64,000 nt of DNA, from positions 12,422-76,421 of the forward strand of contig CALHAG010000001.1 of the NCBI GenBank assembly GCA_937934305.1, read 5' to 3'. The DNA is from Candidatus Caldarchaeum subterraneum. Its GTDB lineage: Archaea; Thermoproteota; Nitrososphaeria_A; Caldarchaeales; Caldarchaeaceae. The notes below the pieces were generated by a model. It was not told the origin of the DNA and searched no databases. It saw only the letters and a list, made by a program, of their open reading frames with translations. Both the position numbers and the translations under genes were made by a program. Of this stretch, positions 1 through 50,195 are shown in pieces. The first letter of the stretch is position 1; each line of letters begins with the position of its first letter.

Positions 1-1
1 A

Positions 2-442
2 ATGCTGTCGGTGTGTTGTATGCTGGTGACGGTGGTGCGTAAGCCTGTTAAGGTGGAGGTTTATGATGTTTATCCCCTGACGCTTGGACACTGTCCCCAC
101 TACAACCTGCTTGCGGCAGAGATGTACGCCGCCGGAGCCGAGTTCTGCGAGCTCTCCACACAAGCGGCTGAGTATCCTGACGATGTTATCAAAAGCCATC
201 AGAGGGCCGCTGAGGTTGTGAGGTTTCTGAGAAACGTGTTTAGGGGCCGGGAGATGAACGTGGAGGTGGAGATGGTTAACCTCATTTCTCCGACTGGGTT
301 TTTCAAGAGTATGTTGAAGAGGGTTTGGCGCCGGCCGGCTGTCGTCGTAGACGGTGTCAAGGTTTGTGAGGGAGGTGTTGATTGGGAGAGGTTGAGGACG
401 GTGGTTGAACAGGCTTGGCTCACGAAAAACAACACTATATAG
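2..442 (+). CDS. Hypothetical thioredoxin-fold / ArsD-like protein (possibly truncated at the window start)
   Basis: 146-aa ORF with a 'KVEVYDV...GHCPH...PAVVVDGVKVCEGGVDWERL' layout reminiscent of small thioredoxin-fold/ArsD-type proteins. The CxxC / Cys-cluster motifs are absent. It sits beside the ArsA-like ATPase genes. Confidence 0.3.
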   Translation: MLSVCCMLVTVVRKPVKVEVYDVYPLTLGHCPHYNLLAAEMYAAGAEFCELSTQAAEYPDDVIKSHQRAAEVVRFLRNVFRGREMNVEVEMVNLISPTGFFKSMLKRVWRRPAVVVDGVKVCEGGVDWERLRTVVEQAWLTKNNTI

Positions 443-720
443 GCTCGAGGGGTGGCGGCGTCAAGGCCGCTCTCAAGGATTTCTTCTTCGGCGCCCTACT
501 TCTCGGGCTCTACGGCGAAGTTGTACGCCTCAAGCAAAAGTATAACGACATTTTTTTCTCGCTGGTTATGGGTGAGTTTCTCGGCATCCCTCTGCTCTGT
601 AACTACTTCACCCTCAGGCTGCTTCCCTACCTTGTTCCAGAGATTGAGTCAGCGAGGAAGCGGCTGCTACAGGATGTTGATGTTCTGGTTCTTCTTCGGG
701 AGGGGCCCGCGGTACATTAG
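415..720 (+). CDS. Small conserved hydrophobic protein, paralog A (shares a G(E/D)xLG(I/F)P(L/I)L..Y..LRLLPY motif with ORF 2686..2973)
   Basis: 101 aa with a GGG N-terminus and hydrophobic segments. Clearly paralogous to 2686..2973: 'MGEFLGIPLLCNYFTLRLLPYLVPEI' aligns with 'MGDMLGFPILPPYYSLRLLPYAIPNV'. Convergent with ArsA-like gene 1. Confidence 0.45.
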   Translation: MAHEKQHYIGSRGGGVKAALKDFFFGALLLGLYGEVVRLKQKYNDIFFSLVMGEFLGIPLLCNYFTLRLLPYLVPEIESARKRLLQDVDVLVLLREGPAVH

Positions 721-1715
721 CTTGGAACATATTGACGGATGTCGTCTGTGATGTTGTAGAGGGCTTTGATTCCTCTTATCTCTGTGGGATACATTCTGAC
801 ATAGCCGCGGATATACTGGCCCATGTCCCGCTCTATAGTGCTGAGATAGCTCCTCTGCTCCTCGAGCTTCGCGGCCAAGTATCCCGATGGGTCTGAAGCC
901 ACATCTTCTCTGTCGAGAACCATGTTGACGAACACTCCGCCGACAGGTATGTTGAATGACTGCACCATCGAGATAAAACGTTTCACAACAGAGATGGGGA
1001 GGCTCTCGGGAGTTGTCACGAAGTAGAAGCGGGTCTTCTCAGGGTCGACGATGGCTTCGCGGGTTTTAGCGAACTTGTCGTAGAGGTTTAGAAGGTCTGC
1101 GACAACGGGGTCTTTCTTTATCTCCTCCATCACCTTCTCCTTCCTGATGGAGAGCCTTAGACGATATTCTTGCGCCTCCTTCCTCGACTGTATCATTCTG
1201 GCGAGCCATAGGCCGTAGAGCTTGCTCAGCCCTATGAGGCGGACGGCGTTGGCGACCGCGGCTGTGTCGAAGACCACGAGGTCATAGTTCTGCCCCTCGT
1301 TGACCATTATGTCCATGACTTTGTCGAACATGGCTGATTCCTGGAAAGCGGGGTTTGTTGTCGCTATTTGGATGAAGGGCTCCGGGTTTATCGGTATCTC
1401 GGCCCATTTGAAGAACTCTTTGAGCCGCGCCTCCATGTTCTGGCGATATCTTTCAATCAGGTCAGATATCTCTACCTCGACGACTGTCAAACCATCTACA
1501 CCCTCGATTTTACAGAATCTTCCCCCGGAGACGTTTTGCATAAACAGTGTTGAGAGCGAATGTACAGGGTTTAGGCTCGCGAGTAAAACAGTTTTGCCTT
1601 GTTGAGCCGATTCGAGTGCAACGGCCCCCGCCAACACAGTTTTTCCAACACCGCCTTTTCCGCCGAGGAAGATGTACTTTGTCCGGCCGATGTCGAGACC
1701 TCTGCTCATGTCCAC
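717..1715 (-). CDS. ArsA/Get3-family P-loop ATPase, paralog 1
   Basis: P-loop 'GGKGGVGKT' and an ArsA-like 'VFDTAAVANAVRLIG' switch region. 332 aa. Its start overlaps the stop of the upstream ArsA-like gene (ATGA-type overlap near 1706-1709). It lacks both the ArsA metalloid-binding cysteines and the Get3 CxxC. Confidence 0.8.
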   Translation of the reverse strand: MDMSRGLDIGRTKYIFLGGKGGVGKTVLAGAVALESAQQGKTVLLASLNPVHSLSTLFMQNVSGGRFCKIEGVDGLTVVEVEISDLIERYRQNMEARLKEFFKWAEIPINPEPFIQIATTNPAFQESAMFDKVMDIMVNEGQNYDLVVFDTAAVANAVRLIGLSKLYGLWLARMIQSRKEAQEYRLRLSIRKEKVMEEIKKDPVVADLLNLYDKFAKTREAIVDPEKTRFYFVTTPESLPISVVKRFISMVQSFNIPVGGVFVNMVLDREDVASDPSGYLAAKLEEQRSYLSTIERDMGQYIRGYVRMYPTEIRGIKALYNITDDIRQYVPS

Positions 1716-2689
1716 TCGATGCCTCCATTCATCAGATGTTTAGCTACTGTGGAAATGCCTTCGAGTCCTCGAGGCTCTTTGGGAAACATGGGGATTATCG
1801 CTGTCACGAGTTTTCCGAATTTGTCCATAATCTCTGTCATGCATTCTCTCTGTTGCTTGAGCTTGTTGGTGATGAAGGGTGATGGGTTGGAGGCCATCTC
1901 CGGCGGAAGCACTTTGTTGACCACTATCCCCGAGAGCTGGAGACCTACTGCTCGAAACATCTCGAGGGCTTTCTCGGTGTCTATAATGGACATTTTCTCC
2001 GGTGTAATGACCATGAAGAAGGCGGCTTTCTCCCTGTCTTTCATCACGTCGGTGAATGCTGTCAACCTTTTTCTGATGTCGTAAAGCTCCTTCAGCACCT
2101 CATCCTCTTTCACAAGCTTCTCACCCCTCAGCCTGCTCGCTATCTCATCATACTCCTTAGCCTTCTCACGCGCCTCCGTCAGCTTCTCAACCCATGCGCT
2201 GAGTATGTCGGCCATCGTCACCATCCGTATACCATGTCCGAAAGGCGGCATGTCAAACACATACAACCCATAGCCTCCCTCAGCCAGATAAGAGGCCATA
2301 GCGTCGTAGGTTGCTGACTCGTACATCGCAGGCTCGGCTACGGAGCTGTCTATGTATGACTCTATCTCTGGCGGTATCTCGGTCTTGTACATGCTGACTA
2401 TCTTCTGCTTTATTTCTTGGATGTATGCGGCGATTTTCGAGTCGGCGTCAATCTCCACGACGAATAGGTTTGGCAACACCTCTATCTCCCCTTTTCCGAA
2501 TATGTTTCTCTCGAAGATGTCGCTAAGGGAGGCTTGCGGGTCTGTGCTGAAGCAGAGAACTTTCTTGGAGCTGCTGACGGCGTAGGAGAGGGCTGCGCTG
2601 CACGTCGTCTTCCCCAGTCCACCTTTCCCCGCGAATATAACCATCTTAAGCTCTGGTTTTGACGCGAGAAATTCGCTGAACCCTTTCAT
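1706..2689 (-). CDS. ArsA/Get3-family P-loop ATPase, paralog 2 (the ORF extends to 2740; start at Met 2689 preferred)
   Basis: P-loop 'FAGKGGLGKTT' and 'VFDMPPFGHGIRM'. Starting at the internal Met (MKGFSEF...) gives a 4-nt overlap with the stop of small paralog B (2686), which suggests translational coupling. Confidence 0.8.
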   Translation of the reverse strand: MKGFSEFLASKPELKMVIFAGKGGLGKTTCSAALSYAVSSSKKVLCFSTDPQASLSDIFERNIFGKGEIEVLPNLFVVEIDADSKIAAYIQEIKQKIVSMYKTEIPPEIESYIDSSVAEPAMYESATYDAMASYLAEGGYGLYVFDMPPFGHGIRMVTMADILSAWVEKLTEAREKAKEYDEIASRLRGEKLVKEDEVLKELYDIRKRLTAFTDVMKDREKAAFFMVITPEKMSIIDTEKALEMFRAVGLQLSGIVVNKVLPPEMASNPSPFITNKLKQQRECMTEIMDKFGKLVTAIIPMFPKEPRGLEGISTVAKHLMNGGIEWT

Positions 2690-2973
2690 CCATAAATCAC
2701 GTCTGTGAAGTCGCGTTCGCGGTAGAACCTGTGTTTCCATGCCTTGACGTTTGGGATGGCGTAGGGCAGAAGCCGTAATGAATAGTATGGCGGTAGAATG
2801 GGGAACCCGAGCATATCACCCATAATCATGAGAATGAACATGTGCTCCATGTACATGCGTGTTTTGAGGATGGATGTGACTTGCTGATGAAGGGCCACGC
2901 CATAGAACATGTCGCCAACTGCTTTCTTGAGACCTGAGAAGAAGCCGCCGCCTTTTTTCTCGCTCACGTCCAT
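2686..2973 (-). CDS. Small conserved hydrophobic protein, paralog B (first gene of a smallB-arsA2-arsA1 operon)
   Basis: 95 aa. GGG N-terminus, and the motif 'MGDMLGFPILPPYYSLRLLPY' shared with ORF 415..720. Confidence 0.45.
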   Translation of the reverse strand: MDVSEKKGGGFFSGLKKAVGDMFYGVALHQQVTSILKTRMYMEHMFILMIMGDMLGFPILPPYYSLRLLPYAIPNVKAWKHRFYRERDFTDVIYG

Positions 2974-3026
2974 ACAACACCCCGCATAATAAAAAAACTT
3001 TACTTATAAAAAATTTTTTAGGGTGT

Positions 3027-4817
3027 TTATGCTTTTACCTCTATTTTGGCGGCTCGTCGGAACCCTCTGACAAAGTAGACAGCCATCGCCAAGCCTATGA
3101 TGAACATTATGGCGCCGACCACTGTTGAGAAACCGTTGATGCCTTGCACAGCCAAGATACCGCCAGCGTTTTTCAGTATGTTCTGAGTTGGGTGGAGAAG
3201 TTTGGCTCCGACGGTTGCGTCGGCGAAAACATAGGTCTGGTAGGCTATGGCGGCTAGTGTGGTCACCATCATGAAGATTCCGGGGATGGTTGTATACCAG
3301 TGGAATCTTTTCTGCGTGTAGAGGAAGAGGCCTACTATGAGTAGGGCGAAGCCTGCGAGAAGCTGGTTTGTTCCGCCGAAGTAGAGCCAGATGTTGGTCC
3401 AGCTGCCTGTGAGCACGAAGATTATCGGGAGGACGAAGCCTAGAATCGATGCGATTAACTTGTTCCCGAGTATGGATAATGGTGTTCCGCCGAAGACCTC
3501 GGCCATCGTCACACGCCAGAACCTGCCCAATATTGTGAGGATTGTCACAGCCATGCCGACCATGTAGTTAGCGAAGAATATGCGGAGGAACGGGGCCGCA
3601 GCTTCTCCACCGAGCAGCGGAGATGTCAAAGTTGTCGCACCTAGAACAAAGTTGCCGGGAGATGCTCCACCAGCGGCCGTCAACAGAGGTATGGATGACC
3701 ATGCGGCCAGCGCCGTGAGACCTACTAGGTTTTCGGTTATCATCGCGCCTGCGCCGACTGGTCTGATGTCTGTCTCGACGTCTATCTGCTTCGAGGTTAG
3801 ACCTGTGCTTATGAGGCTGTGCCATCCCGAGATGGCTCCGCAGGCGATGGTGACAAATAGAGCTGGCCATAGGGGGCCGACGGTGAACACCTCGGCCCAG
3901 CCTCTGAAGTCGGGAACCTGTAGCTTAACTCCTGTAGCAGGTGAGACGAGGGCTCCCACTGTTAGGAGGATGACCGCGGGGATGAGCGAGTAGTAGGCGA
4001 TGTAGTTCATCGGAGTTATTAGACGCGGCATCGGCAGCAGCGAGCCGAGGACTAGTATAGCGACGAGGGGAATGAGCCAGTAGGTGTATGGGTTGGCTGC
4101 AGCGGCTACACCTTCAGGAGGCGGTGTGAAGACGAAGGTTCCAGGTGGTGGAACGTTCGCGAGCACGGTGGAGCCGAGCGCTATTCCTATGGCTTGAAGA
4201 ACCACGGCGAGTATCGTCACGGGCGCGACGTTCATCTTAACCTTGAACAGGAGGTGGCCTGTTATCACAGCGGCTATGACGAGGACCAGCAGCGACCAGA
4301 AGGAGCCTGGGAATGCGTTCATCACCGTTGCGACGACGAAGAGGAACGCGGCGTTGATGAGAAGTAGGTAGAAGAGGAGGAAGCCGAGCAACAGTTTCCT
4401 CGGCGTCGGCCCAAGCATCTCATAGGCAAGAGGCCCGAAGGACCTGCCCTCTTTTCTCACCGACAGAAACATGGCGCTGTAGTCTTGAACCCAGCCGATC
4501 AACAGGGCGGCGAAGAGAATCCATAGAAACGCGGGAAGCCATCCAAAGGCTAGGGCCGCTGTCCCGGGGCCGATTATTGGCCCGAGCGCGGCTATGCTGT
4601 TCCACTGAAAACCGTAGAGAACAAACCTTCCCACCGGAAAGAATTCGACGCCGTCGGCATAGACATGGGCTGGCGTGGGCCTCGACCTGTCGGGGCTCCA
4701 GACCTTTCTATCGATTATTTTGCTGTAAACGCTGTAGGCTATGAGGAAAACAACCAACCCAACGATGGTAAAGCCGAAAGGTGTATCGAAAACCATCGGC
4801 ATAAAATATCTATACAT
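3027..4817 (-). CDS. cstA: Carbon starvation protein CstA-family membrane transporter
   Basis: 596-aa polytopic membrane protein with the CstA-like 'SIAALGPIIGPGTAALAFGWLPAFLWI' signature near the N-terminus. Confidence 0.65.
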   Translation of the reverse strand: MYRYFMPMVFDTPFGFTIVGLVVFLIAYSVYSKIIDRKVWSPDRSRPTPAHVYADGVEFFPVGRFVLYGFQWNSIAALGPIIGPGTAALAFGWLPAFLWILFAALLIGWVQDYSAMFLSVRKEGRSFGPLAYEMLGPTPRKLLLGFLLFYLLLINAAFLFVVATVMNAFPGSFWSLLVLVIAAVITGHLLFKVKMNVAPVTILAVVLQAIGIALGSTVLANVPPPGTFVFTPPPEGVAAAANPYTYWLIPLVAILVLGSLLPMPRLITPMNYIAYYSLIPAVILLTVGALVSPATGVKLQVPDFRGWAEVFTVGPLWPALFVTIACGAISGWHSLISTGLTSKQIDVETDIRPVGAGAMITENLVGLTALAAWSSIPLLTAAGGASPGNFVLGATTLTSPLLGGEAAAPFLRIFFANYMVGMAVTILTILGRFWRVTMAEVFGGTPLSILGNKLIASILGFVLPIIFVLTGSWTNIWLYFGGTNQLLAGFALLIVGLFLYTQKRFHWYTTIPGIFMMVTTLAAIAYQTYVFADATVGAKLLHPTQNILKNAGGILAVQGINGFSTVVGAIMFIIGLAMAVYFVRGFRRAAKIEVKA

Positions 4818-4818
4818 T

Positions 4819-5445
4819 TTATATAAGCTTTTCTAGAACATTCAACAACGCTTTTGTTTCCTCGGGGCCTTTTGGGGAGAAATAGGCCTGTAGATGGGGC
4901 AGCGACCTGCTGACTGATACGAGGTACAGTTCATCGAATCCGGCCACAGTGGATACATGTTTTTCCAGAAAATCAATGTCCGGATTCTGTTCACGGGAGC
5001 AGAACATGAACCCTTCTTTTTCACCAACTATCTTTCCCCATCGGCTTGCGTATCGGTAGGCTGGAGTGTTTTTTCTCACAAGCGTGTAAGAGCGTGTGGG
5101 CGTCTTCGCGTGTTTGGCTCTTAAGATGACTAGCTCTCTTCTCCCCATCAACCTAGCCACGAGATATGAGAGAGGGTTCATGAAGGGAGGAATAGTCACC
5201 ACCGCGGACAAGTCGGTGAAGCCGCCCACATCCTTGCATGAGACGACGGCTGCTGATACACCTATACGCGACCCGGTTAAACGGCCTCCACGAGCCTTAG
5301 CAGCCTCTGAAAAATCACGGACAATTCCCGCGACACGACGTTTGCCATAAACAGAGCCCGCGATGTAGAATACCAGAAACAGGACGGCCATAGCGAGCAC
5401 AGCCGCCGTCGGGTCGAGCACCAAATCCACAAAAATGTAAAACAA
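4819..5445 (-). CDS. Hypothetical membrane-anchored protein (co-directional, 2 nt after cstA)
   Basis: 208 aa with an N-terminal TM segment. No recognisable motif. Tightly packed with cstA. Confidence 0.35.
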   Translation of the reverse strand: MFYIFVDLVLDPTAAVLAMAVLFLVFYIAGSVYGKRRVAGIVRDFSEAAKARGGRLTGSRIGVSAAVVSCKDVGGFTDLSAVVTIPPFMNPLSYLVARLMGRRELVILRAKHAKTPTRSYTLVRKNTPAYRYASRWGKIVGEKEGFMFCSREQNPDIDFLEKHVSTVAGFDELYLVSVSRSLPHLQAYFSPKGPEETKALLNVLEKLI

Positions 5446-5545
5446 TCCATTGCTTTTAATTTTGCATCATGTATTCACGCAGAGAGGGCGTCATGCTTTA
5501 AGCGGAGATGAGAATAGAATAAACAACCATCATGTTATAGGTCCC

Positions 5546-5618
5546 TAGCCCCGGTGGGATTTGAACCCACGTCGCGGGCTCCAAAGGCCCGCATCCTTGG
5601 CCGCTAGACGACGGGGCT
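5546..5618 (-). tRNA. tRNA, probably Gln (anticodon UUG)
   Basis: Reverse complement reads AGCCCCG...GTGGGTTCAAATCCCAC...CGGGGCT-A. This gives a 7-bp acceptor stem, a TTCAAAT T-loop, an anticodon stem CGGGC/GCCCG and loop CUUUGGA. No CCA is encoded. Confidence 0.65.
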
Positions 5619-5644
5619 GTTTTATTGTTTGTTTGGTTTGTTTT

Positions 5645-5947
5645 TTAAGTTTGTTGTTTGGTGGGGTGTGAGTAGGTGACTTGGTCTACGCTGTGGACTG
5701 CTGCGCCTAGTTGTTTGACGGTGTTGGCGATTTGCTCGAAGTTGATGTTGTTTCCCTCGATGGTTAGCTTGACTGTTTCGGTGTCGGCGTCTACCTCGAT
5801 AATTGACACCTCCACCCTCGTAACACCCTTGAGCCCTGTCAAAGCCTGCGCAAATTCGACCATGCCGGGTTTATGGGGCTTCAGCACATCTAGGACAAGC
5901 CGGGTAAGGACCAGCTCATGTTTATCAGGCATTTTGGGTCTATTCAC
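5645..5947 (-). CDS. DUF211/COG1888-like small archaeal protein
   Basis: 100 aa. 'LVLDVLKPHKPGMVEFAQAL...VEVSIIEVDADTETVKLTIEGNNI...VHSVDQV' matches the pattern of the conserved archaeal DUF211 family. Assignment from memory. Confidence 0.5.
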   Translation of the reverse strand: MNRPKMPDKHELVLTRLVLDVLKPHKPGMVEFAQALTGLKGVTRVEVSIIEVDADTETVKLTIEGNNINFEQIANTVKQLGAAVHSVDQVTYSHPTKQQT

Positions 5948-6076
5948 CCGGGGGTTATGGTTGTTTAGCTGGCTTTTTTATGTTGATTTGTTACCTTTAA
6001 ATAGACTTCTCAAACCCTGCGGAAACTATGCAGAATTTATTTATAAACAGGTGTAAAAACTTTCCAAACGTGATGA

Positions 6077-6113
6077 GAGCGGGTATTTCTGACCGGTGAT
6101 GACAATACCCGTT
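6077..6113. promoter_or_regulatory. Imperfect palindrome (GAGCGGGTATT-N15-AATACCCGTTC), candidate operator upstream of crtI
   Basis: 11-nt arms with one mismatch. Lies 60-100 nt upstream of the crtI start, in the divergent intergenic region between the DUF211 gene and crtI. Confidence 0.4.
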
Positions 6114-6141
6114 CTGATGAATACTTGTATCTGGGTTAGGA

Positions 6142-6149
6142 TTTTATAG
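6142..6149 (+). promoter_or_regulatory. Archaeal TATA box (TTTTATAG) for crtI; predicts a leaderless transcript
   Basis: A/T-rich TATA-like element centred about 28 nt upstream of the TTG start at 6174. No SD-like sequence lies between them. Confidence 0.45.
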
Positions 6150-6173
6150 TAATAACTCGCGTGTCGGGTCAGG

Positions 6174-7643
6174 TTGAGAATAGTCGTTGTTGGCGCCGGA
6201 GTAGGCGGTCTAGCGGCCGCAGCTCTCCTGGCTAGAGATGGTCACGAGGTGACGATTGTCGAGAAGAACGAGAACGTCGGTGGAAGAGCTGGAGTACTCA
6301 GCCGAGACGGGTTTACCTTCGACATGGGCCCCACATGGTATCTTATGCCGGAGATATTCGACCGCTTCTACAGCCACTTTGGCAGGAAAACCTCCGACTT
6401 TTACAATCTTCTGAAACTTGACCCGGGGTACCGTGTCTTCTTCGATGACGGGGGCAAAGTGGATATATCGGCTGAGCTTGACGAGAACATCAGTTTATTC
6501 GACAGCCTCGAACCCAACGGGGGTGAAAAGCTGCGTAGATTTCTAGCAAAATGCGAAGAACTCTACAAGAGCGTATCAAAAACCCTCTACCTTGACCTCG
6601 ACTCACCTTTCAGCTTCCTCAACCCGGAGATACTTTCACAAGGCATCAAGATAAACATCTTCGAATCCGTCGAATCCTATGTCAAGAAATGGTTTCAATC
6701 AGACAAAGCCCGTAAACTGCTTCTCTACTCAATTGGTTTCATCGGGACACCACCCTCCAAAGCACCCGCGTTCTACGCCATACTCAACTACGTCAAACTC
6801 GTTCAAGGTGTCTATATGCCGGAGCATGGCATCAGACAGGTTGTCAACGCATTATACAGATTAGCGAAGCAGGAAAATGTAGAGTTTCTCCTCGGCCAGG
6901 AGGTCAGTAAAATCGAGGTTAGAAACTCTAGAGCAGAACGCATCTACATGAACGGTTCTTCGATGAAGGTGGACGCCGTCGTCGTTAACGCTGACTATGC
7001 ATCTTTCGAGACAAAGATTCTTGAACCCCGTCACCGCACCTACGATGTCGATTACTGGAGCAAACGAATGTTCACACCATCCGCTCTCATCGCATACATA
7101 GGACTAGACAAAAAGGTTGAAAATCTTATTCCGCATAACGTTTTTCTTGAAAAAGACTGGGGTGAAAACTTTCAGCAAATATTCGACCAACGTTACGCGA
7201 AATGGCCCGAATACGCTTCCTACTATGTGCATGTGCCCTCGAAGATAGATAAAACAGCTGCACCAGCCGGGGGAGAAGCGGTCTTCATATTGATACCGGT
7301 CGCCCACGGCATAGATGATGATGACAGCAAACGCGAAACACTCTTAAACAACATACTGCAAGACCTCGAGCAGAAAACCGGCGAAAAAGTCCGCGAAAAC
7401 ATAGTTTTCAAACAATTGTTCAGCATAAGAGATTTTTCAGCACGTTACCACGCATACCGCGGCTCGGCGCTTGGCCTAGCCCATACACTTGGCCAAACAG
7501 CTTTCTGGAGACCCAGGCATAGAAGCAAAAAGGTCAAAAATCTTTACTACAGCGGCCAGTATACTCATCCCGGCATAGGGGTGCCGATGGTTTTGATATC
7601 CGCGGAGATTGTACGTAACAAGCTGCGGAAGGAGTTGATGTAG
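6174..7643 (+). CDS. crtI: Phytoene desaturase (CrtI family FAD-dependent oxidoreductase)
   Basis: N-terminal dinucleotide-binding 'IVVVGAGVGGLAAAALLARDGHEVTIVEKNENVGGRAG'. 489 aa. The stop is immediately followed by the crtB ATG. Confidence 0.8.
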   Translation: MRIVVVGAGVGGLAAAALLARDGHEVTIVEKNENVGGRAGVLSRDGFTFDMGPTWYLMPEIFDRFYSHFGRKTSDFYNLLKLDPGYRVFFDDGGKVDISAELDENISLFDSLEPNGGEKLRRFLAKCEELYKSVSKTLYLDLDSPFSFLNPEILSQGIKINIFESVESYVKKWFQSDKARKLLLYSIGFIGTPPSKAPAFYAILNYVKLVQGVYMPEHGIRQVVNALYRLAKQENVEFLLGQEVSKIEVRNSRAERIYMNGSSMKVDAVVVNADYASFETKILEPRHRTYDVDYWSKRMFTPSALIAYIGLDKKVENLIPHNVFLEKDWGENFQQIFDQRYAKWPEYASYYVHVPSKIDKTAAPAGGEAVFILIPVAHGIDDDDSKRETLLNNILQDLEQKTGEKVRENIVFKQLFSIRDFSARYHAYRGSALGLAHTLGQTAFWRPRHRSKKVKNLYYSGQYTHPGIGVPMVLISAEIVRNKLRKELM

Positions 7644-8528
7644 ATGCTTGTTCCAAAGCCTCCGCGTGTCCAGAAACCTTTGTTCAACCTGTTCCAGAAA
7701 GGAAGCACAACCTACTTTAACAGCACCCTCTTCTTCCCCGAAGACATCAAAAAAGACGTTTTCAAGCTCTACGCATTCCTGCGTAAAGCAGACAACTACG
7801 TTGACATTATTCCGCAGGATATAGAAGGATTCTATGCGTTCAGAGAAGAGTATGAGCGAGCCGCATCCGGGCATCAATCGTCCGACATCGTCATCAACGA
7901 GTTCGTAAAACTTTCTAACAGGAAGAAATTCGAGCAAGAATGGATAACCGCCTTTCTCGACGCGATGGAGTCAGACCTCTACCGGAAAACTTACTACACA
8001 CTCGACGAGCTCTGCGTCTACATGTATGGTTCCGCCGAGGTCGTCGGCCTATTTATGGCTAAGATTCTTGATTTGCCTGAGGAGTCCTACATCTACGCAA
8101 GGTTTCTCGGTCGGGCGATGCAGTACATCAACTTCATTAGAGACATTCGGGAGGATTATGAGCTGGGTCGCCAGTATCTACCGTACGAGGAGTTGCGCAT
8201 GTATGGAGTTAAGGATTTTGACCCGGCGAGTTTCTGCGGAAAACAGGAGAGTTTCGCACGGTTCATCAGGCTGCAGATTGAGCGTTATTTCGAGTGGCAG
8301 CGGTTTGCTGAAAAGGGTTACAGATACATACCGTACCGTTACTTGATACCTATTAAAACCGCGGCAGACATGTACAAGTGGACGGCTAAAATAATTTACA
8401 AACGTCCATCGTTGGTTTTTTTGCGAAAAGTGAAGCCCAGAAAACGTAGAGTGGTTTACGGGGCTCACGTCAATTTTGTAATGGCTCTTCGGCACAAAAT
8501 TTTTCCCGGTGGGTTGGCGTGGCCCTAG
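7644..8528 (+). CDS. crtB: Phytoene synthase (squalene/phytoene synthase family)
   Basis: 'YAFLRKADNYVD' and 'DIREDYELGRQYLP' Asp-rich motifs of trans-isoprenyl diphosphate head-to-head synthases. Confidence 0.8.
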   Translation: MLVPKPPRVQKPLFNLFQKGSTTYFNSTLFFPEDIKKDVFKLYAFLRKADNYVDIIPQDIEGFYAFREEYERAASGHQSSDIVINEFVKLSNRKKFEQEWITAFLDAMESDLYRKTYYTLDELCVYMYGSAEVVGLFMAKILDLPEESYIYARFLGRAMQYINFIRDIREDYELGRQYLPYEELRMYGVKDFDPASFCGKQESFARFIRLQIERYFEWQRFAEKGYRYIPYRYLIPIKTAADMYKWTAKIIYKRPSLVFLRKVKPRKRRVVYGAHVNFVMALRHKIFPGGLAWP

Positions 8529-20635: not shown

Positions 20636-20720
20636 GCGGGGGTCGCCAAGCCTGGTCAACGGCGCAGGACTGAGGCTCCTGTCCCGAAGGGGTTCGTGGG
20701 TTCAAATCCCACCCCCCGCA
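20636..20720 (+). tRNA. tRNA-Leu (anticodon GAG), type II with a long variable arm
   Basis: GCGGGGG...CCCCCGC acceptor stem and GGTTCAAATCC T-loop. Anticodon stem CAGGA/TCCTG with loop CUGAGGC. Long extra arm 'TGTCCCGAAGGGGTTC'. Confidence 0.8.
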
Positions 20721-21702: not shown

Positions 21703-21776
21703 TGCGGCCGCCGGGATTTGAACCCGGGACCTGCGGGCCGGGGCCCCGCCGTCCTACCTGGCTAGACTACGGCCGC
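21703..21776 (-). tRNA. tRNA-Gly (probable anticodon CCC)
   Basis: Reverse complement reads GCGGCCG TA GTCT...GGAC, anticodon stem GCGGG/CCCGC with loop GCCCCGG, CCGGGTTCAAATCCCGG, CGGCCGC-A. Fits the 73-nt cloverleaf without an intron. The anticodon loop is atypical (C at position 33). Confidence 0.7.
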
Positions 21777-47979: not shown

Positions 47980-48981
47980 ATGCGGGGCTGGGCTTTTCCC
48001 CTTCTCTCAACAGCTCTTTTCGCATCGTTTCTCTCCTCTGTTTTTTTCGGCAGCGTACGTGTTCCGCCCAGCGATGTTTTGATGTATCTGCTTGGTTGGA
48101 GAAGCGGGGTCCCTGTGTTCGATGTGGTTGTTGACATGCGGCTGGTGAGAGGGGTTGCGGCTGTTTTGACCGGGGCTTCGCTCGGTGTGGCGGGCGCCGT
48201 TCTCCAGTCTCTTTTCCGCAACCCTTTGGCGGACCCGTTTGTCCTCGGCATATCCTCGGGCTCCTCCCTCGCCATCGCGCTCACACTCGTCGCAGGATTG
48301 GGCGCGGGCCTCATCCAAGCATACGACCCCTACGCGCTCTACGTGGCCGCAGCCGCGGGAGCCGTAGCCACATCACTCGCCGTCGTCATCTTCTCAACCA
48401 TCGCTAAGACAGCGATTGGCCTGATACTCGCTGGAGTGATGCTCGGCTACCTAAACGCTGGCCTCACAACCCTGCTGATAACCCTCTCACCCGTGGAGAC
48501 GATGCGTGCCTTCAGCTTCTGGACGCTTGGGACTTTTTCGGCTGCGAAGTGGTCTCTGGTTGAGCCTGTGCTTCCCCTGTTCGCCGTTGGTCTTGTTGCT
48601 TCTCTTCTCGTCGCCAAGCCCCTCAACGCTCTCACATTCGGTGAGGAGATGGCTGCTTCCATGGGAGCATGGGTTCGCGGGGGCCGTGTCGCAGCTGTCG
48701 CCGCCTCTTCTGCCGTGGTCGCTCTCGCAACAGTTGTCGCAGGGCCCATAGGGTTCATAGGCCTCGCCGCTCCACACGTCGCCCGTCTCCTCGCAAAATC
48801 GGTTGACAACCGCGTCGTCATCCCACTCTCAGGCCTCGCCGGAGCAACCCTCGCCACAGCATCCGACATCGCAGCACGCAACATCATGCCGCCCCTCGAC
48901 CTGCCGCTCACAGCCATCACATCACTTTTCGGCGCACCCATCATTCTCATACTTCTACTCCGAGGTGGGAAATGGGTTTGA
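47980..48981 (+). CDS. FecCD/BtuC-family ABC permease
   Basis: 333 aa with about 9-10 TM segments and Gly/Ala-rich helices typical of FecCD. The ATG overlaps the SBP stop. Confidence 0.8.
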   Translation: MRGWAFPLLSTALFASFLSSVFFGSVRVPPSDVLMYLLGWRSGVPVFDVVVDMRLVRGVAAVLTGASLGVAGAVLQSLFRNPLADPFVLGISSGSSLAIALTLVAGLGAGLIQAYDPYALYVAAAAGAVATSLAVVIFSTIAKTAIGLILAGVMLGYLNAGLTTLLITLSPVETMRAFSFWTLGTFSAAKWSLVEPVLPLFAVGLVASLLVAKPLNALTFGEEMAASMGAWVRGGRVAAVAASSAVVALATVVAGPIGFIGLAAPHVARLLAKSVDNRVVIPLSGLAGATLATASDIAARNIMPPLDLPLTAITSLFGAPIILILLLRGGKWV

Positions 48982-50195
48982 TGCGGGTTTTCGGCCTATC
49001 AGCGGGCTATGGCTCTGTGCCTGTTGTCTCGGATGTGGACTTGGGGCTGTGGGCCGGCGAGTTTGTGGTGGTCATCGGCCCCAACGCCGCGGGCAAAACA
49101 ACCTTCCTCAAAACCTTGGCGGGGTTGGCTAAGCCTGTCAAGGGAGTTATCTATCTATCCGGTGAGGATTTGCGGATGCATGGGCTTCGGCAGAGGGCGA
49201 GGAACATAGCCGCTGTCTTGACGGGGAGGCCCGACGTCTCGGGGATGCTTGTTGAAGAGGTTGTGGGGCTAGGACGATACGCGTGGACGGGGCCGCTTCA
49301 CATGCTTGGCCCCTTGGATAAACAGGCCGTGGAGGATGCGATGAAGAAGACAGGTGTTGCGCATCTCAGGGGCCGCAGAGTCTCCGAGCTAAGCGACGGC
49401 CAGCTCCAGCGCGTGTTGATAGCGAGGGCCCTCGCCCAGCAGCCCCGCGTCCTCATCCTCGACGAACCCACCACACATCTCGACGCAAAATCAAGACTCG
49501 AAATCATCACCCTCCTACACAGCCTCGCTCACCGCGAAAACCTCACAGTCATCGCCTCAACCCACGAGCTCGAACTCGCCCTCCGCTTCGCCGACAGACT
49601 GATACTCATAGCAGAAGGAAAAGCAATAGCCGCCGACGACCCCTCAGAACTCATCAAAGACCAAAGATTCATCAAAGCCTTCGGACTAGCCGACGGCGTA
49701 ACACTCTCCCACACAACCCTCTCAATAGAATACCGCCCACACAGAAACACCGGCGTAGCCCCTGTCTTCGTAATCGCTGGAGCCGGAACCGGCGCAGCTT
49801 TCTACAGGCTATTACTCAAGACAGGCTATGATGTTGTGACGGGTGTGCTTCACGAGAACGATGTCGACCACCATGTAGCTTCCAGCCTTGGCCTCGACAT
49901 CGTTTCCGAGCGGCCCTACACGAGGATAAGCTGGGAAAAGCTGAGCCAAGCCGAGGAAAAAATGTGCAACGCATCCGCAGTTGTTTACACCAGTCCACCC
50001 CTCGGCGAGCAGAACATGGGGAACTACATCTTGTTAGAGAAAGCCGTTGAACACGGTCTCCCCACATACGTCGTCGGAATAATCCATAGAGGAGCCGAGA
50101 CAATTCACACGCCCCGCGAACTCGTAGCCAAACTCGCCAAAACACAGAACTCAGGAAGAGAGGCCTTGAAGCCTTTTCCTCGCCCTGACAAGTAA
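48972..50195 (+). CDS. FepC/BtuD-like ABC ATPase with an extra C-terminal domain of about 150 aa
   Basis: Walker A 'GPNAAGKTT', signature 'LSDGQLQRVLIARAL', Walker B 'LILDEPTTHLD'. Residues about 255-407 form an additional domain ('VFVIAGAGTGAAFY...'). Confidence 0.75.
   Translation: MGLMRVFGLSAGYGSVPVVSDVDLGLWAGEFVVVIGPNAAGKTTFLKTLAGLAKPVKGVIYLSGEDLRMHGLRQRARNIAAVLTGRPDVSGMLVEEVVGLGRYAWTGPLHMLGPLDKQAVEDAMKKTGVAHLRGRRVSELSDGQLQRVLIARALAQQPRVLILDEPTTHLDAKSRLEIITLLHSLAHRENLTVIASTHELELALRFADRLILIAEGKAIAADDPSELIKDQRFIKAFGLADGVTLSHTTLSIEYRPHRNTGVAPVFVIAGAGTGAAFYRLLLKTGYDVVTGVLHENDVDHHVASSLGLDIVSERPYTRISWEKLSQAEEKMCNASAVVYTSPPLGEQNMGNYILLEKAVEHGLPTYVVGIIHRGAETIHTPRELVAKLAKTQNSGREALKPFPRPDK

What the first reader, a model, noticed from the sequence alone, without database searches (positions are those of the whole stretch)
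415..2973. Uncharacterised module of two tandem ArsA/Get3-like ATPases bracketed by mirror-image small paralogous membrane-type proteins
The operon on the minus strand reads smallB, arsA2, arsA1 with ATGA-type overlaps. It converges on a plus-strand paralog of smallB (smallA). The two small proteins (95 and 101 aa) share a GGG N-terminus and the motif 'MG(E/D)xLG(I/F)P(L/I)L..Y(F/Y)(T/S)LRLLPY'. Neither ATPase carries the ArsA As(III)-binding cysteines or the Get3 CxxC zinc motif. They are therefore unlikely to be arsenite pumps or canonical tail-anchor chaperones. The arrangement suggests an ancient duplication of a small-protein-plus-ATPase unit with an unknown, possibly membrane-targeting or assembly, function.
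Basis: partly seen in the sequence, partly recalled or inferred. Interest (0 to 1): 0.6.

Follow-up and report, generated by a model that had tools for sequence, protein, structure and literature searches.

The report
CstA-linked Get3/ArsA ATPase pair with CstX
The two small proteins and two ArsA/Get3-like ATPases are real. They are part of a gene cluster built around a CstA-family membrane transporter, found widely in archaea and bacteria, described by comparative genomics in 2010 and, as far as I could find, never tested experimentally.

Summary
All four ORFs exist at the stated coordinates. The small proteins are paralogs (32% identity, E 4e-17), as are the ATPases (29%, E 4e-47). The ATGA overlaps are real, and neither ATPase has the ArsA cysteines or the Get3 CxxC.

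Directly upstream on the same strand lie a CstA-family permease (3027-4817) and a 208-aa membrane-anchored protein (4819-5445). This is the cstY-cstA-cstX-arsA-homologue cluster of Castillo & Saier 2010 (PMC2963123). The small proteins are CstX.

In 80 related loci from Archaea and Bacteria, 68 of 68 with enough downstream DNA have CstX followed by both ATPases in the same order. CstA is present in 71 of 75.

New here:
- The two ATPases form separate ancient clades. One keeps every catalytic motif. The other has Asn in place of the catalytic switch I Asp in 66/66 sequences and a degenerate switch II, so the pair probably has one active site.
- The smallA-type CstX is an ancient paralog that usually ends in a C-terminal His and is sometimes fused to a thioredoxin-fold protein.

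Best model (inferred): the heterodimer docks through CstX onto CstA and drives or gates transport, as ArsA does with ArsB. A Get3-like chaperone role for CstX is not excluded. Verdict: new member of a known but untested kind.

The parts
2..442 (+). p146: thioredoxin-fold accessory protein. It has one conserved Cys (GHCPHY). It is co-directional with smallA and overlaps it by 28 nt.
   Evidence: ORF. The AF2 model has pLDDT 74 with a beta-alpha-beta / beta-beta-alpha core. Best Foldseek PDB matches are thioredoxins (E 0.03-0.1, prob about 0.9); ArsD is among the hits but scores no better. UniRef calls the 91%-identical homolog 'Thioredoxin-like fold domain-containing protein'. The family occurs in 27 of 80 related loci. 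Natural fusions of p146-like domains to CstX2 exist: P0135, P0151, P0209.
415..720 (+).
   Evidence: 32% identity to smallB, E 4e-17. It belongs to a 29-member clade spanning Caldarchaeales, Thermoplasmata, Sulfolobales, Symbiobacteriaceae and Anaerolineae; 21 of the 29 end in a C-terminal His. The identical protein is seen on 41 contigs.
717..1715 (-). The likely start is the ATG at 1709.
   Evidence: PF02374 E 6e-52; TIGR00345 182 bits against a cut-off of 135. Switch I is S[LT]NPVHSL with Asn replacing the catalytic Asp in 66/66 orthologs. Switch II is FDTA[AP][VT]A[NH]A with His in only 4/66. The orthologs form a monophyletic clade.
1706..2689 (-).
   Evidence: PF02374 E 2e-65; TIGR00345 204 bits. 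GKGGLGKTT, FS[TV]DPQASL[ST]D and D[ML]PPFGHG are invariant in 70 orthologs. The closest solved structures are archaeal Get3, 3zq6 (E 4e-48) and 3ug6 (E 2e-44), aligned end to end but with no CxxC. These Get3 sequences branch as sister to the alpha clade.
2686..2973 (-).
   Evidence: 1239 homologs in the 90%-clustered database; all 120 listed carry the precomputed PF25952. There are 431 clusters at 50% identity and relatives in at least 584 species genomes. It shares 55-60% identity with bacterial homologs. It lies directly upstream of the alpha ATPase in 72 loci. AF2 gives pLDDT 67 with helices 11-55, 63-72 and 74-94. Hydropathy is borderline and both flanks are basic.
2974..3026 (-). 53-nt AT-rich spacer between the CstA stop and the CstX1 start. 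It holds a T-run and a TTTTTTATAAG box about 35 nt before the ATG. It may be an internal archaeal promoter.
   Evidence: Read directly from the sequence. Not tested; the promoter tool does not cover archaeal promoters.
3027..4817 (-). CstA-family permease, 596 aa.
   Evidence: PF02554 CstA E 7.5e-102. A CstA-family gene is present in 71 of 75 related loci and lies directly upstream on the same strand in 57.
4819..5445 (-). CstY: about 208 aa, with an N-terminal transmembrane helix followed by basic residues and a soluble domain. Its stop codon is separated from the CstA start codon by a single base.
   Evidence: Kyte-Doolittle 19-residue maximum 2.46 at residues 14-32. The family occurs in 44 of 80 loci. 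The junction sequence is ...ATATAAaATG. It matches the '~210 aa single TMS CstY' of PMC2963123. No Pfam, NCBIfam or PDB sequence match.

Best explanation
The four genes are the cytoplasmic and adaptor part of a CstA-family transporter complex.

The alpha (arsA2-type) and beta (arsA1-type) proteins form a Get3/ArsA-like heterodimer across their nucleotide sites. This is analogous to the A1/A2 halves of ArsA. Only alpha can hydrolyse ATP. Beta keeps its P-loop, so it can still bind nucleotide, but it has lost the catalytic Asp and the switch II His.

The highly conserved helical CstX proteins tether this ATPase to the CstA permease through a weakly hydrophobic, proline-kinked hairpin. ATP binding and hydrolysis then drive or gate transport of an unknown substrate, as ArsA does for the carrier ArsB.

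CstY, the thioredoxin-fold p146 and the His/Cys-bearing p168 are accessory subunits. Their conserved Cys and His residues hint at a thiol-reactive or metal-containing cargo.

What is shown: the gene content, the conserved order, the motif asymmetry and the absence of ArsA/Get3 cysteines. What is inferred: heterodimer formation, the CstX bridge, and coupling to transport.
For: - In the window, cstY-cstA-cstX1-alpha-beta are co-directional. The junctions are a single base, 53 nt, ATGA and ATGA.
- In 80 loci from Caldarchaeales, Bathyarchaeia, Sulfolobales/Desulfurococcales, Thermoplasmata, Asgard lineages, Methanoperedens, Symbiobacteriaceae, Chloroflexota, Desulfobacterota and Rokubacteria, the order CstX1 -> alpha -> beta is kept in 68 of 68 loci with room. 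CstA is present in 71 of 75.
- Alpha and beta are distinct monophyletic clades with complementary motif patterns: catalytic Asp in 70/70 alpha sequences, Asn in 66/66 beta sequences.
- There is no Cys triad, no CxxC and no ars genes.
- CstX is more conserved than the ATPases. It shares 55-60% identity with bacterial homologs, against mean distances of about 0.41-0.43 within each ATPase clade. That fits a protein with several binding partners.
- Independent prior proposal: Castillo & Saier reported co-clustering and parallel trees of CstA, CstX and ArsA homologues. They suggested that CstX links CstA to the ATPase (PMC2963123).
- From my own knowledge of the families: ArsA turns the secondary carrier ArsB into an ATP-driven pump, and Get3 D57N binds ATP but does not hydrolyse it.
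Against: - There is no physical or functional evidence for any contact.
- No multimer modelling was possible.
- The CstX monomer model is of low confidence (pLDDT 67) and matched no solved fold.
- No CstX-ATPase fusion was seen among the best 150 family representatives.
- The only CstA-CstX fusion (P0134) is a singleton fragment from a read-level assembly. It lacks CstA's last helix and may be an artefact.
- The ATPases are closest to archaeal Get3, not ArsA. They keep a helical subdomain of Get3-like length and hydrophobic fraction, which equally suits a chaperone role.
- In Bathyarchaeia, cstA lies downstream on the opposite strand, so co-transcription is not universal.
- The characterised CstA and BtsT of E. 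coli work as proton symporters without any ATPase (abstracts of PMC7730263 and PMC5847655).
Confidence: 0.45

Rival explanations
1. Dedicated Get3-like chaperone. The alpha/beta heterodimer uses a composite hydrophobic groove to capture the hydrophobic C-proximal helix of CstX1 and CstX2, which resemble tail-anchored clients. It delivers or assembles them at the membrane or on CstA. The ATPase would then act in biogenesis, not in the transport cycle.
For: - The closest solved relatives are archaeal Get3 proteins (3zq6, 3ug6; E 1e-42 to 1e-48), aligned over their full length.
- The helical subdomain is retained at nearly the same length (65-67 against 69-71 residues) and hydrophobic fraction (0.30-0.36 against 0.32-0.37) as in those Get3s.
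- CstX has one moderately hydrophobic segment about 20 residues from its C-terminus.
- There are often two CstX paralogs for the two ATPase subunits.
- The review PMC6593721 notes that archaeal Get3 homologs lacking CxxC can dimerise and bind tail-anchored proteins.
Against: - The hydrophobic segment is weak for a transmembrane helix (median maximum hydropathy 1.48). It is interrupted by invariant Gly, Asp/Glu and Pro residues, and both flanks are net basic.
- The groove-lining regions contain fewer Met than in Get3 (2-4 against 6-9). The lid insert is charged in alpha: KAKEYDEIASRLRGEK against GSMAKAFKNILPFMG.
- A catalytic chaperone would not need the strict co-occurrence (68 of 68 loci) and translational coupling seen with its client.
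- CstX is conserved along its whole length, not only in the hydrophobic part.
Confidence: 0.22
2. Metal or metalloid/thiol trafficking system. The ATPase pair works as a SIMIBI-type metallochaperone engine (like ArsA with ArsD, or CooC, UreG and HypB). The Cys/His accessory proteins hand a metal or thiol-reactive species to or from CstA. This is compatible with the best explanation, differing only in the cargo and in where the cargo binds.
For: - The p168 family has invariant His105, Cys132 and a C-terminal Cys163-His164.
- 21 of 29 CstX2-type proteins end in a C-terminal His. Symbiobacteriaceae have EHAPH[IM]H, and other representatives end HEHHLHGL.
- p146 has a thioredoxin fold with a conserved Cys and is fused to CstX2 in several lineages.
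- ArsD, the thioredoxin-fold chaperone of ArsA, appears among the fold matches.
- E. coli CstA's own partner YbdD ends ...RCC.
Against: - The ATPases themselves have no conserved Cys. Their only conserved His are the switch residues.
- The ArsD matches are no better than generic thioredoxins, all with E above 0.03.
- The accessory genes are not universal: p168 in 48, CstY in 44 and p146 in 27 of 80 loci.
- YbdD shows no detectable homology to CstX (hhalign probability 0.3%).
- No metal-related gene or regulator is conserved in the neighbourhood.
Confidence: 0.15
3. A bona fide arsenite resistance ATPase (ArsA split into two genes) working with an arsenite carrier.
For: Pfam names the domain 'Anion-transporting ATPase', and the proteins match ArsA models weakly (TIGR04291 E 2e-28 and 5e-26).
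Against: - Scores of 92-99 bits fall far below the cut-off of 650.
- No Cys113/172/422 equivalents are conserved (PMC2963123).
- No arsB, acr3, arsR or arsD lies within 8 kb or in the conserved neighbourhood of the 80 loci.
Confidence: 0.02

Closest known systems
cstA-cstX-(cstY)-arsA-homologue gene clusters (Castillo & Saier 2010, Int J Microbiol 2010:187373, PMC2963123)
   Same: - A CstA-family permease.
- A protein of about 90 aa (CstX).
- In archaea, a single-TMS protein of about 210 aa (CstY).
- Single-domain ArsA homologues of about 330 aa, adjacent as a pair in Symbiobacterium thermophilum and Pyrobaculum arsenaticum.
- No ars genes.

My S. thermophilum locus L043 has exactly CstA-CstX-340 aa-343 aa. 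This matches the paper's Sth1 and Sth2, 345 and 339 aa.
   Different: The paper had 26 instances and treated the ATPases as one kind.

New here:
- The pair is universal in the sampled loci (68 of 68) and resolves into an active clade and a catalytically degenerate clade.
- There is a second, ancient CstX paralog with a C-terminal His.
- There are two further accessory families: thioredoxin-fold p146 and His/Cys p168.
- In this window the CstX2 unit is inverted, giving the convergent 'bracket'.
- The paper's 'single TMS' call for CstX is not well supported by hydropathy.
ArsAB arsenite pump (ArsA ATPase plus ArsB carrier)
   Same: An ATPase of the same superfamily with two homologous nucleotide-binding units, encoded next to a secondary-carrier-type permease. 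The proposed logic, an ATPase converting or boosting a carrier, is the same.
   Different: - Two separate genes instead of one fused A1-A2 protein.
- No metalloid-binding cysteines.
- One unit is catalytically degenerate.
- The carrier is CstA-family, not ArsB or Acr3.
- An obligatory small adaptor (CstX) is present.
- There is no ArsR or ArsD.
Archaeal Get3 (M. thermautotrophicus 3zq6, M. jannaschii 3ug6) and the eukaryotic Get3/TRC40 tail-anchor targeting factor
   Same: These are the best sequence matches among solved structures (E 1e-42 to 1e-48), aligned over their full length. Both window ATPases pass the TIGR00345 cut-off. The helical subdomain is retained.
   Different: - No CxxC zinc bridge.
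- Heterodimer of two ancient paralogs rather than a homodimer.
- One subunit naturally carries the equivalent of the hydrolysis-dead Get3 D57N.
- The genes are strictly linked to CstA and CstX.
- The putative groove contains fewer Met.
Mycobacterium tuberculosis BagAB (Rv3679/Rv3680; PDB 6bs3-6bs5)
   Same: Two adjacent Get3-like ATPase genes. According to the literature cited in PMC10597346, they interact. [quoted passage not shown]
   Different: The relationship is only distant. NF053622 and NF053621 score 28-40 bits against cut-offs of 400 and 521, and 6bs3_B matches at E 2e-6. The bagAB papers could not be read, so I did not check whether the locus has a cstA or cstX partner. A weak match of CstX to the Corynebacterium 'cory-CC-star' model (E 1e-7) is an untested lead towards Actinobacteria.
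E. coli CstA-YbdD and BtsT-YjiX (CstA-family carrier plus a small PF04328 partner)
   Same: A CstA-family carrier encoded next to a small conserved protein with a reactive C-terminus. YbdD ends ...RCC.
   Different: YbdD is not detectably homologous to CstX (hhalign probability 0.3%). No ATPase genes lie in the 5.5 kb examined around E. coli cstA.

Membership tests
CstA-associated ArsA-homologue cluster (Castillo & Saier 2010) | Single-domain ArsA homologue(s) of about 330 aa | tested here: met
   327-aa and 330/332-aa proteins, each with one PF02374 domain.
CstA-associated ArsA-homologue cluster (Castillo & Saier 2010) | CstA-family permease in the same gene cluster | tested here: met
   Window 3027-4817 matches PF02554 at E 7.5e-102, on the same strand, 53 nt upstream of CstX1. 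CstA is present in 71 of 75 related loci.
CstA-associated ArsA-homologue cluster (Castillo & Saier 2010) | CstX protein of about 90 aa next to cstA | tested here: met
   The window has 95-aa and 101-aa proteins. The S. thermophilum locus L043 has this family between CstA and the two ATPases that the paper lists as Sth1 and Sth2. The paper's CstX sequences themselves were not available for a direct comparison.
CstA-associated ArsA-homologue cluster (Castillo & Saier 2010) | CstY of about 210 aa with one TMS (archaeal clusters) | tested here: met
   Window 4819-5445 is 208 aa with an N-terminal hydrophobic helix (hydropathy 2.46). The family occurs in 44 of 80 loci.
CstA-associated ArsA-homologue cluster (Castillo & Saier 2010) | No arsR, arsB, acr3 or arsD in the cluster | tested here: met
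   None among the ORFs in 1-8500 or among the gene families conserved across the 80 loci.
ArsA arsenite-pump ATPase (TIGR04291) | Passes the equivalog cut-off; two fused ATPase domains of about 590 aa | tested here: not met
   92 and 99 bits against a cut-off of 650. Each protein has a single domain.
ArsA arsenite-pump ATPase (TIGR04291) | Metalloid-binding Cys113, Cys172 and Cys422 | tested here: not met
   Neither ortholog set has an invariant Cys column. The only column above 50% Cys (67%) lies in alpha, next to switch I. PMC2963123 states the same for all single-domain homologues.
Get3/TRC40 tail-anchor targeting ATPase | Sequence membership of the GET3_arsA_TRC40 subfamily (TIGR00345) | tested here: met
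   182 and 204 bits against a cut-off of 135.
Get3/TRC40 tail-anchor targeting ATPase | CxxC zinc-bridged homodimer | tested here: not met
   The CxxC position reads SNPSPF (alpha) and SDPSGY (beta). The archaeal Get3s have CEFC and CDFC there.
Get3/TRC40 tail-anchor targeting ATPase | Catalytic switch I Asp and switch II DTAPTGH in each protomer | tested here: not met
   Alpha keeps D and P.GH. Beta has Asn in 66/66 sequences and lacks the GH.
Get3/TRC40 tail-anchor targeting ATPase | Methionine-rich hydrophobic client groove with a lid (TRC40 insert) | tested here: inconclusive
   Subdomain length and hydrophobic fraction resemble archaeal Get3, but Met counts are lower (2-4 against 6-9) and the lid segment of alpha is charged. 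No 3D model of the dimer was made.
Get3/TRC40 tail-anchor targeting ATPase | Binds and delivers tail-anchored proteins to a membrane receptor | not testable with these tools
   This needs biochemistry.
BagA/BagB (NF053622, NF053621) | Passes the equivalog cut-offs | tested here: not met
   38-40 bits against 400, and 28-32 bits against 521.
cory-CC-star protein (NF041419) | Passes the cut-off; C-terminal Cys-Cys | tested here: not met
   30-31 bits against a cut-off of 80. The window proteins end ...IYG and ...AVH.
Pfam PF25952 (family precomputed for the CstX homologs) | Match to the Pfam model | not testable with these tools
   All 120 listed homologs carry PF25952, including one 94% identical to smallB. 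The local Pfam copy lacks the model and returns nothing.

The most novel reading that the evidence does not exclude
A heterodimeric Get3/ArsA-type ATPase with one naturally dead catalytic site is a stoichiometric subunit of a CstA-family permease, clamped on by one or two CstX hairpin proteins. This would be a widespread class of ATP-coupled carrier (at least 584 species, Archaea and Bacteria) that has never been tested experimentally. It would be built like ArsAB but from Get3-like parts. Its Cys/His-bearing accessory proteins (p168, thioredoxin-fold p146, His-tailed CstX2) point to a metal-bound or thiol-reactive cargo rather than pyruvate or peptides. It would also assign a function to many of the CxxC-less 'Get3 homologs' of prokaryotes.
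Probability: 0.3. Interest if true: 0.7.

Novelty: new member of a known kind. Interest (0 to 1): 0.4.

Why it matters
Prokaryotic Get3/ArsA homologs without CxxC or arsenic cysteines are common, and their function is an open question. This cluster is probably the best genomic handle on one large group of them.

If the ATPase pair really couples to CstA, it would be a second example, after ArsAB, of a SIMIBI ATPase energising a secondary carrier. CstA-family 'carbon starvation' transporters would then include primary-active members.

The conserved Asp-to-Asn subunit gives a clean, testable prediction: one hydrolytic site and one regulatory nucleotide site. The idea has been in print since 2010, and I found no experimental follow-up in the held library. 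The value here lies in sharpening and extending it, not in discovering it.

Tried and rejected
- **Local Pfam on the small proteins.** Nothing was found, even at E 10. The family's Pfam model PF25952 is not in the local copy, and no paper mentions it.
- **BagAB as the closest relative.** Only P-loop-level similarity. The two BagAB papers and the Suloway 2012 Get3 paper are not held.
- **'CC-star' and 'CstX' literature searches.** Only PMC2963123 uses CstX in this sense.
- **Homology between CstX and E. coli YbdD.** I suspected it from the FFRERQD / FYRERDF resemblance. It was rejected by hhalign (probability 0.3%).
- **Fold search with the CstX model.** No match at all; the model is of low confidence.
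- **ArsD-like identity for p146.** ArsD appears among the fold hits but no better than generic thioredoxins, so only 'thioredoxin fold' is claimed.
- **PDB searches for p146, CstY and p168.** Sequence searches with p146 and CstY and a profile search with p168 found nothing.
- **The CstA-CstX fusion P0134 as Rosetta-stone evidence.** Down-weighted: it is a singleton fragment from a read-level assembly and lacks CstA's last helix.
- **Hydrophobicity of the helical subdomain as a discriminator between chaperone and pump.** It does not discriminate.
- **tblastn of CstX against plasmids.** No match.
- **C-terminal CC among short family representatives.** None found.
- **Other copies in the window.** None, and p168 is absent because it lies beyond the left edge.

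Full report
**1. Observation**

- smallA, 415-720 (+), 101 aa, TTG start.
- An ArsA-like gene at 717-1715 (-).
- A second ArsA-like gene at 1706-2740 (-).
- smallB, 2686-2973 (-), 95 aa.

The small proteins share 32% identity over 75 residues (E 4e-17). The ATPases share 29% identity over 315 residues (E 4e-47). Both ATPases match PF02374 (E 6e-52 and 2e-65). Both pass the NCBIfam cut-off for TIGR00345 GET3_arsA_TRC40. Both fall far below the cut-offs for true ArsA and for BagA/BagB.

With starts at the ATG at 2689 and the ATG at 1709, both junctions are ATGA overlaps. The convergent genes overlap by their stop codons (TTAG at 717-720).

The window comes from a relative of Candidatus Caldarchaeum subterraneum. 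The C. subterraneum homolog of smallB is 94% identical.

**2.

The module is not free-standing. A 596-aa CstA-family permease lies 53 nt upstream of smallB on the same strand (3027-4817; PF02554, E 7.5e-102). One base upstream of that is a 208-aa protein with an N-terminal transmembrane helix (4819-5445). A tRNA-Gln (5546-5618) bounds the cluster.

On the other side, smallA is overlapped by 28 nt by a co-directional gene (2-442). The product of that gene has a thioredoxin fold: AF2 pLDDT 74, best PDB fold matches thioredoxins, and a source name 'Thioredoxin-like fold domain-containing protein'.

**3. Conservation**

The small proteins form a large family:
- 1239 hits in the 90%-clustered database. 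All 120 listed carry the precomputed Pfam PF25952, which the local Pfam copy lacks.
- 431 clusters at 50% identity.
- Relatives in at least 584 species genomes.

The best 80 loci span these groups:
- Archaea: Caldarchaeales, Bathyarchaeia, Thermoproteota (including Sulfolobales and Desulfurococcales), Thermoplasmata, Asgard lineages and Methanoperedens.
- Bacteria: Symbiobacteriaceae and other Bacillota, Chloroflexota, Desulfobacterota and Rokubacteria.

I called ORFs in these loci and searched them with the window proteins.
- Every one of the 68 loci with at least 2.3 kb downstream has an arsA2-type gene and then an arsA1-type gene directly after the small gene.
- 71 of 75 loci contain a CstA gene, 57 of them directly upstream on the same strand.
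- Clustering all locus ORFs showed three more recurrent families: the 208-aa protein (44 loci), the thioredoxin-fold protein (27 loci) and a protein of about 168 aa (48 loci). In Caldarchaeum the 168-aa gene lies just beyond the window's left edge.

**4. It is already in the literature**

Castillo & Saier (2010, PMC2963123) used SEED to describe 26 clusters in which single-domain ArsA homologues of about 330 aa co-occur with:
- cstA;
- a 'CstX' protein of about 90 aa;
- in archaea, a single-TMS 'CstY' of about 210 aa.

They noted adjacent ArsA-homologue pairs in Symbiobacterium thermophilum (25% identity) and Pyrobaculum arsenaticum (31%). They noted the absence of ars genes and of the ArsA cysteines. 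They reported parallel trees for CstA, CstX and the ArsA homologues. They proposed that the ATPase energises CstA, with CstX as the linker.

My S. thermophilum locus L043 has CstA, then the small family, then 340-aa and 343-aa ATPases. This identifies smallA and smallB as CstX and the 208-aa protein as CstY.

No later paper in the held library uses the name CstX in this sense. The 2019 Get3 review does not mention the CstA context. I found no experimental work.

**5. What this analysis adds**

(a) Two ATPase clades. The ATPases are two ancient, separately monophyletic clades present together in all sampled lineages. The solved archaeal Get3s branch as sister to the arsA2-type clade, which I call alpha.

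(b) Complementary motifs.
- Alpha (n=70) has invariant GKGGLGKTT, FS[TV]DPQASL[ST]D and D[ML]PPFGHG.
- Beta (the arsA1 type, n=66) keeps GKGGVGKT. Its switch I is S[LT]NPVHSL, with Asn replacing the catalytic Asp in 66/66 sequences. Its switch II is FDTA[AP][VT]A[NH]A, with His in only 4/66.
- From general knowledge of the family, Get3 D57N binds ATP but cannot hydrolyse it. The pair therefore looks like an obligate heterodimer with one hydrolytic site and one nucleotide-binding, non-hydrolytic site.

(c) An ancient second CstX. The smallA-type CstX is an ancient paralog. It forms a 29-member clade across Caldarchaeales, Thermoplasmata, Sulfolobales, Symbiobacteriaceae and Anaerolineae. Twenty-one of the 29 end in a C-terminal His, for example EGPAVH and EHAPHMH. 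Bathyarchaeia and some other lineages instead carry a different second copy in tandem upstream.

(d) Natural fusions. A p146-like thioredoxin-fold domain is fused to the N-terminus of CstX2-type proteins (P0135, P0151, P0209, seen on contigs up to 826 kb). There is also a CstX-CstX tandem, P0121. A soluble N-terminal fusion partner implies that the CstX N-terminus is cytoplasmic.

(e) A likely metal site in p168. The p168 family has invariant His, Cys and a C-terminal Cys-His, which looks like a metal site.

(f) CstX may not span the membrane.
- The 'single TMS' or 'membrane-type' label is shaky. The median maximum hydropathy is 1.48, and only 11% of sequences reach 1.6.
- The segment contains invariant Gly, Asp/Glu and Pro residues, and both flanks are basic.
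- AF2 predicts three helices at low confidence.
- A cytoplasm-facing hairpin or an interface helix fits better than a spanning helix.

**6. The duplication idea**

Both pairs are indeed ancient paralogs. The arrangement does not support duplication of a 'small protein plus ATPase' unit, however.
- The conserved order is X-alpha-beta.
- The second X sits in variable positions: after beta on the same strand in L011, L012, L029, L036, L041 and L045; between X1 and alpha in L022, L028 and L044; upstream in Bathyarchaeia; distant and on the opposite strand in Symbiobacteriaceae.
- The mirror-image bracket is specific to the Caldarchaeum lineage (L002-L004). There the p146-CstX2 unit is inverted.

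**7. Mechanism**

Best-supported reading (confidence about 0.45): the alpha/beta heterodimer is tethered by CstX to the CstA permease and drives or gates transport, as ArsA does for ArsB.

Evidence in its favour:
- strict co-occurrence of the genes;
- translational coupling at the gene junctions;
- the very high conservation of CstX (55-60% identity with bacterial homologs);
- the earlier co-evolution analysis of Castillo & Saier.

Main rival (about 0.22): a dedicated Get3-like chaperone for CstX. The ATPases are closest to archaeal Get3. They keep a helical subdomain of Get3-like length and hydrophobic fraction, though with fewer Met and a charged lid in alpha.

A metal or thiol cargo is a compatible refinement, suggested by the Cys/His accessory proteins. 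An arsenite pump is excluded.

None of the physical steps is shown, and multimer modelling was not available.

**8. Verdict**

This is a real, strongly conserved system. The window holds a new member of a kind described by comparative genomics in 2010 and, as far as I could find, never tested.

It missed the CstA context and the prior description.

Interest is moderate. The open question of what CxxC-less prokaryotic Get3 homologs do becomes more testable through the asymmetric-heterodimer prediction.

Noticed in passing
Loci L002 9378-9872, L060 8372-8878 and 46 others (alignment A5); in the window it would lie just left of position 1: A soluble protein family of about 168 aa recurs in 48 of 80 clusters, usually right after the beta ATPase. 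It has invariant His105, Cys132 and a C-terminal Cys163-His164, which looks like a four-ligand metal site. It has no Pfam, NCBIfam or PDB match.
   Followed up: partly
window 2-442 (+): A thioredoxin-fold protein with one conserved Cys (GHCPHY) overlaps the smallA start by 28 nt. In other lineages the same domain is fused to CstX2-type proteins (P0135, P0151, P0209). ArsD appears among its fold matches but scores no better than ordinary thioredoxins.
   Followed up: partly
window 415-720 C-terminus; clade of 29 in loci L002-L070: The smallA-type CstX paralog usually ends in a C-terminal His (EGPAVH; Symbiobacteriaceae EHAPH[IM]H). Other representatives end HEHHLHGL. E. coli CstA's unrelated partner YbdD ends ...RCC. 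Reactive C-terminal residues seem to recur among small partners of CstA-family carriers.
   Followed up: partly
window 415-720 and 2686-2973 against NCBIfam NF041419: Both small proteins match the Corynebacterium 'cory-CC-star protein' model over the conserved motif (E 1e-7, 30-31 bits, below the cut-off of 80). This suggests a distant actinobacterial branch of the CstX family. I could not check whether it sits next to bagAB-like ATPases or cstA.
   Followed up: no
window 2974-3026 (-): The AT-rich spacer between the CstA stop and the CstX1 start has a T-run and a TTTTTTATAAG box about 35 nt before the ATG. It may be an internal archaeal promoter, so that CstX1 and the ATPases can be transcribed separately from cstY-cstA.
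   Followed up: no
window 5546-5618 (-), 20636-20720 (+), 21703-21776 (-): Three tRNA genes: Gln-TTG, Leu-GAG and Gly-CCC. The tRNA-Gln sits directly upstream of CstY and bounds the cluster. No other Rfam family reaches its gathering score in the window.
   Followed up: yes
window 5645-5947 (-), 6174-7643 (+), 7644-8528 (+): A DUF211 (COG1888) protein, followed by an adjacent pair (489 and 294 aa) that I read from the translations as phytoene desaturase-like and phytoene synthase-like. These would be carotenoid genes directly beside the cluster. They were not run through Pfam.
   Followed up: no
P0134 (protein from a read-level assembly, SRR5439155): A fragment in which CstA residues equivalent to 433-555 run straight into a full CstX, skipping CstA's last helix. 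It is either a genuine CstA-CstX fusion or an assembly or frameshift artefact. It is a singleton.
   Followed up: partly
window 48001-50000: G+C rises to 0.589 against about 0.52 elsewhere in the window. Not examined.
   Followed up: no
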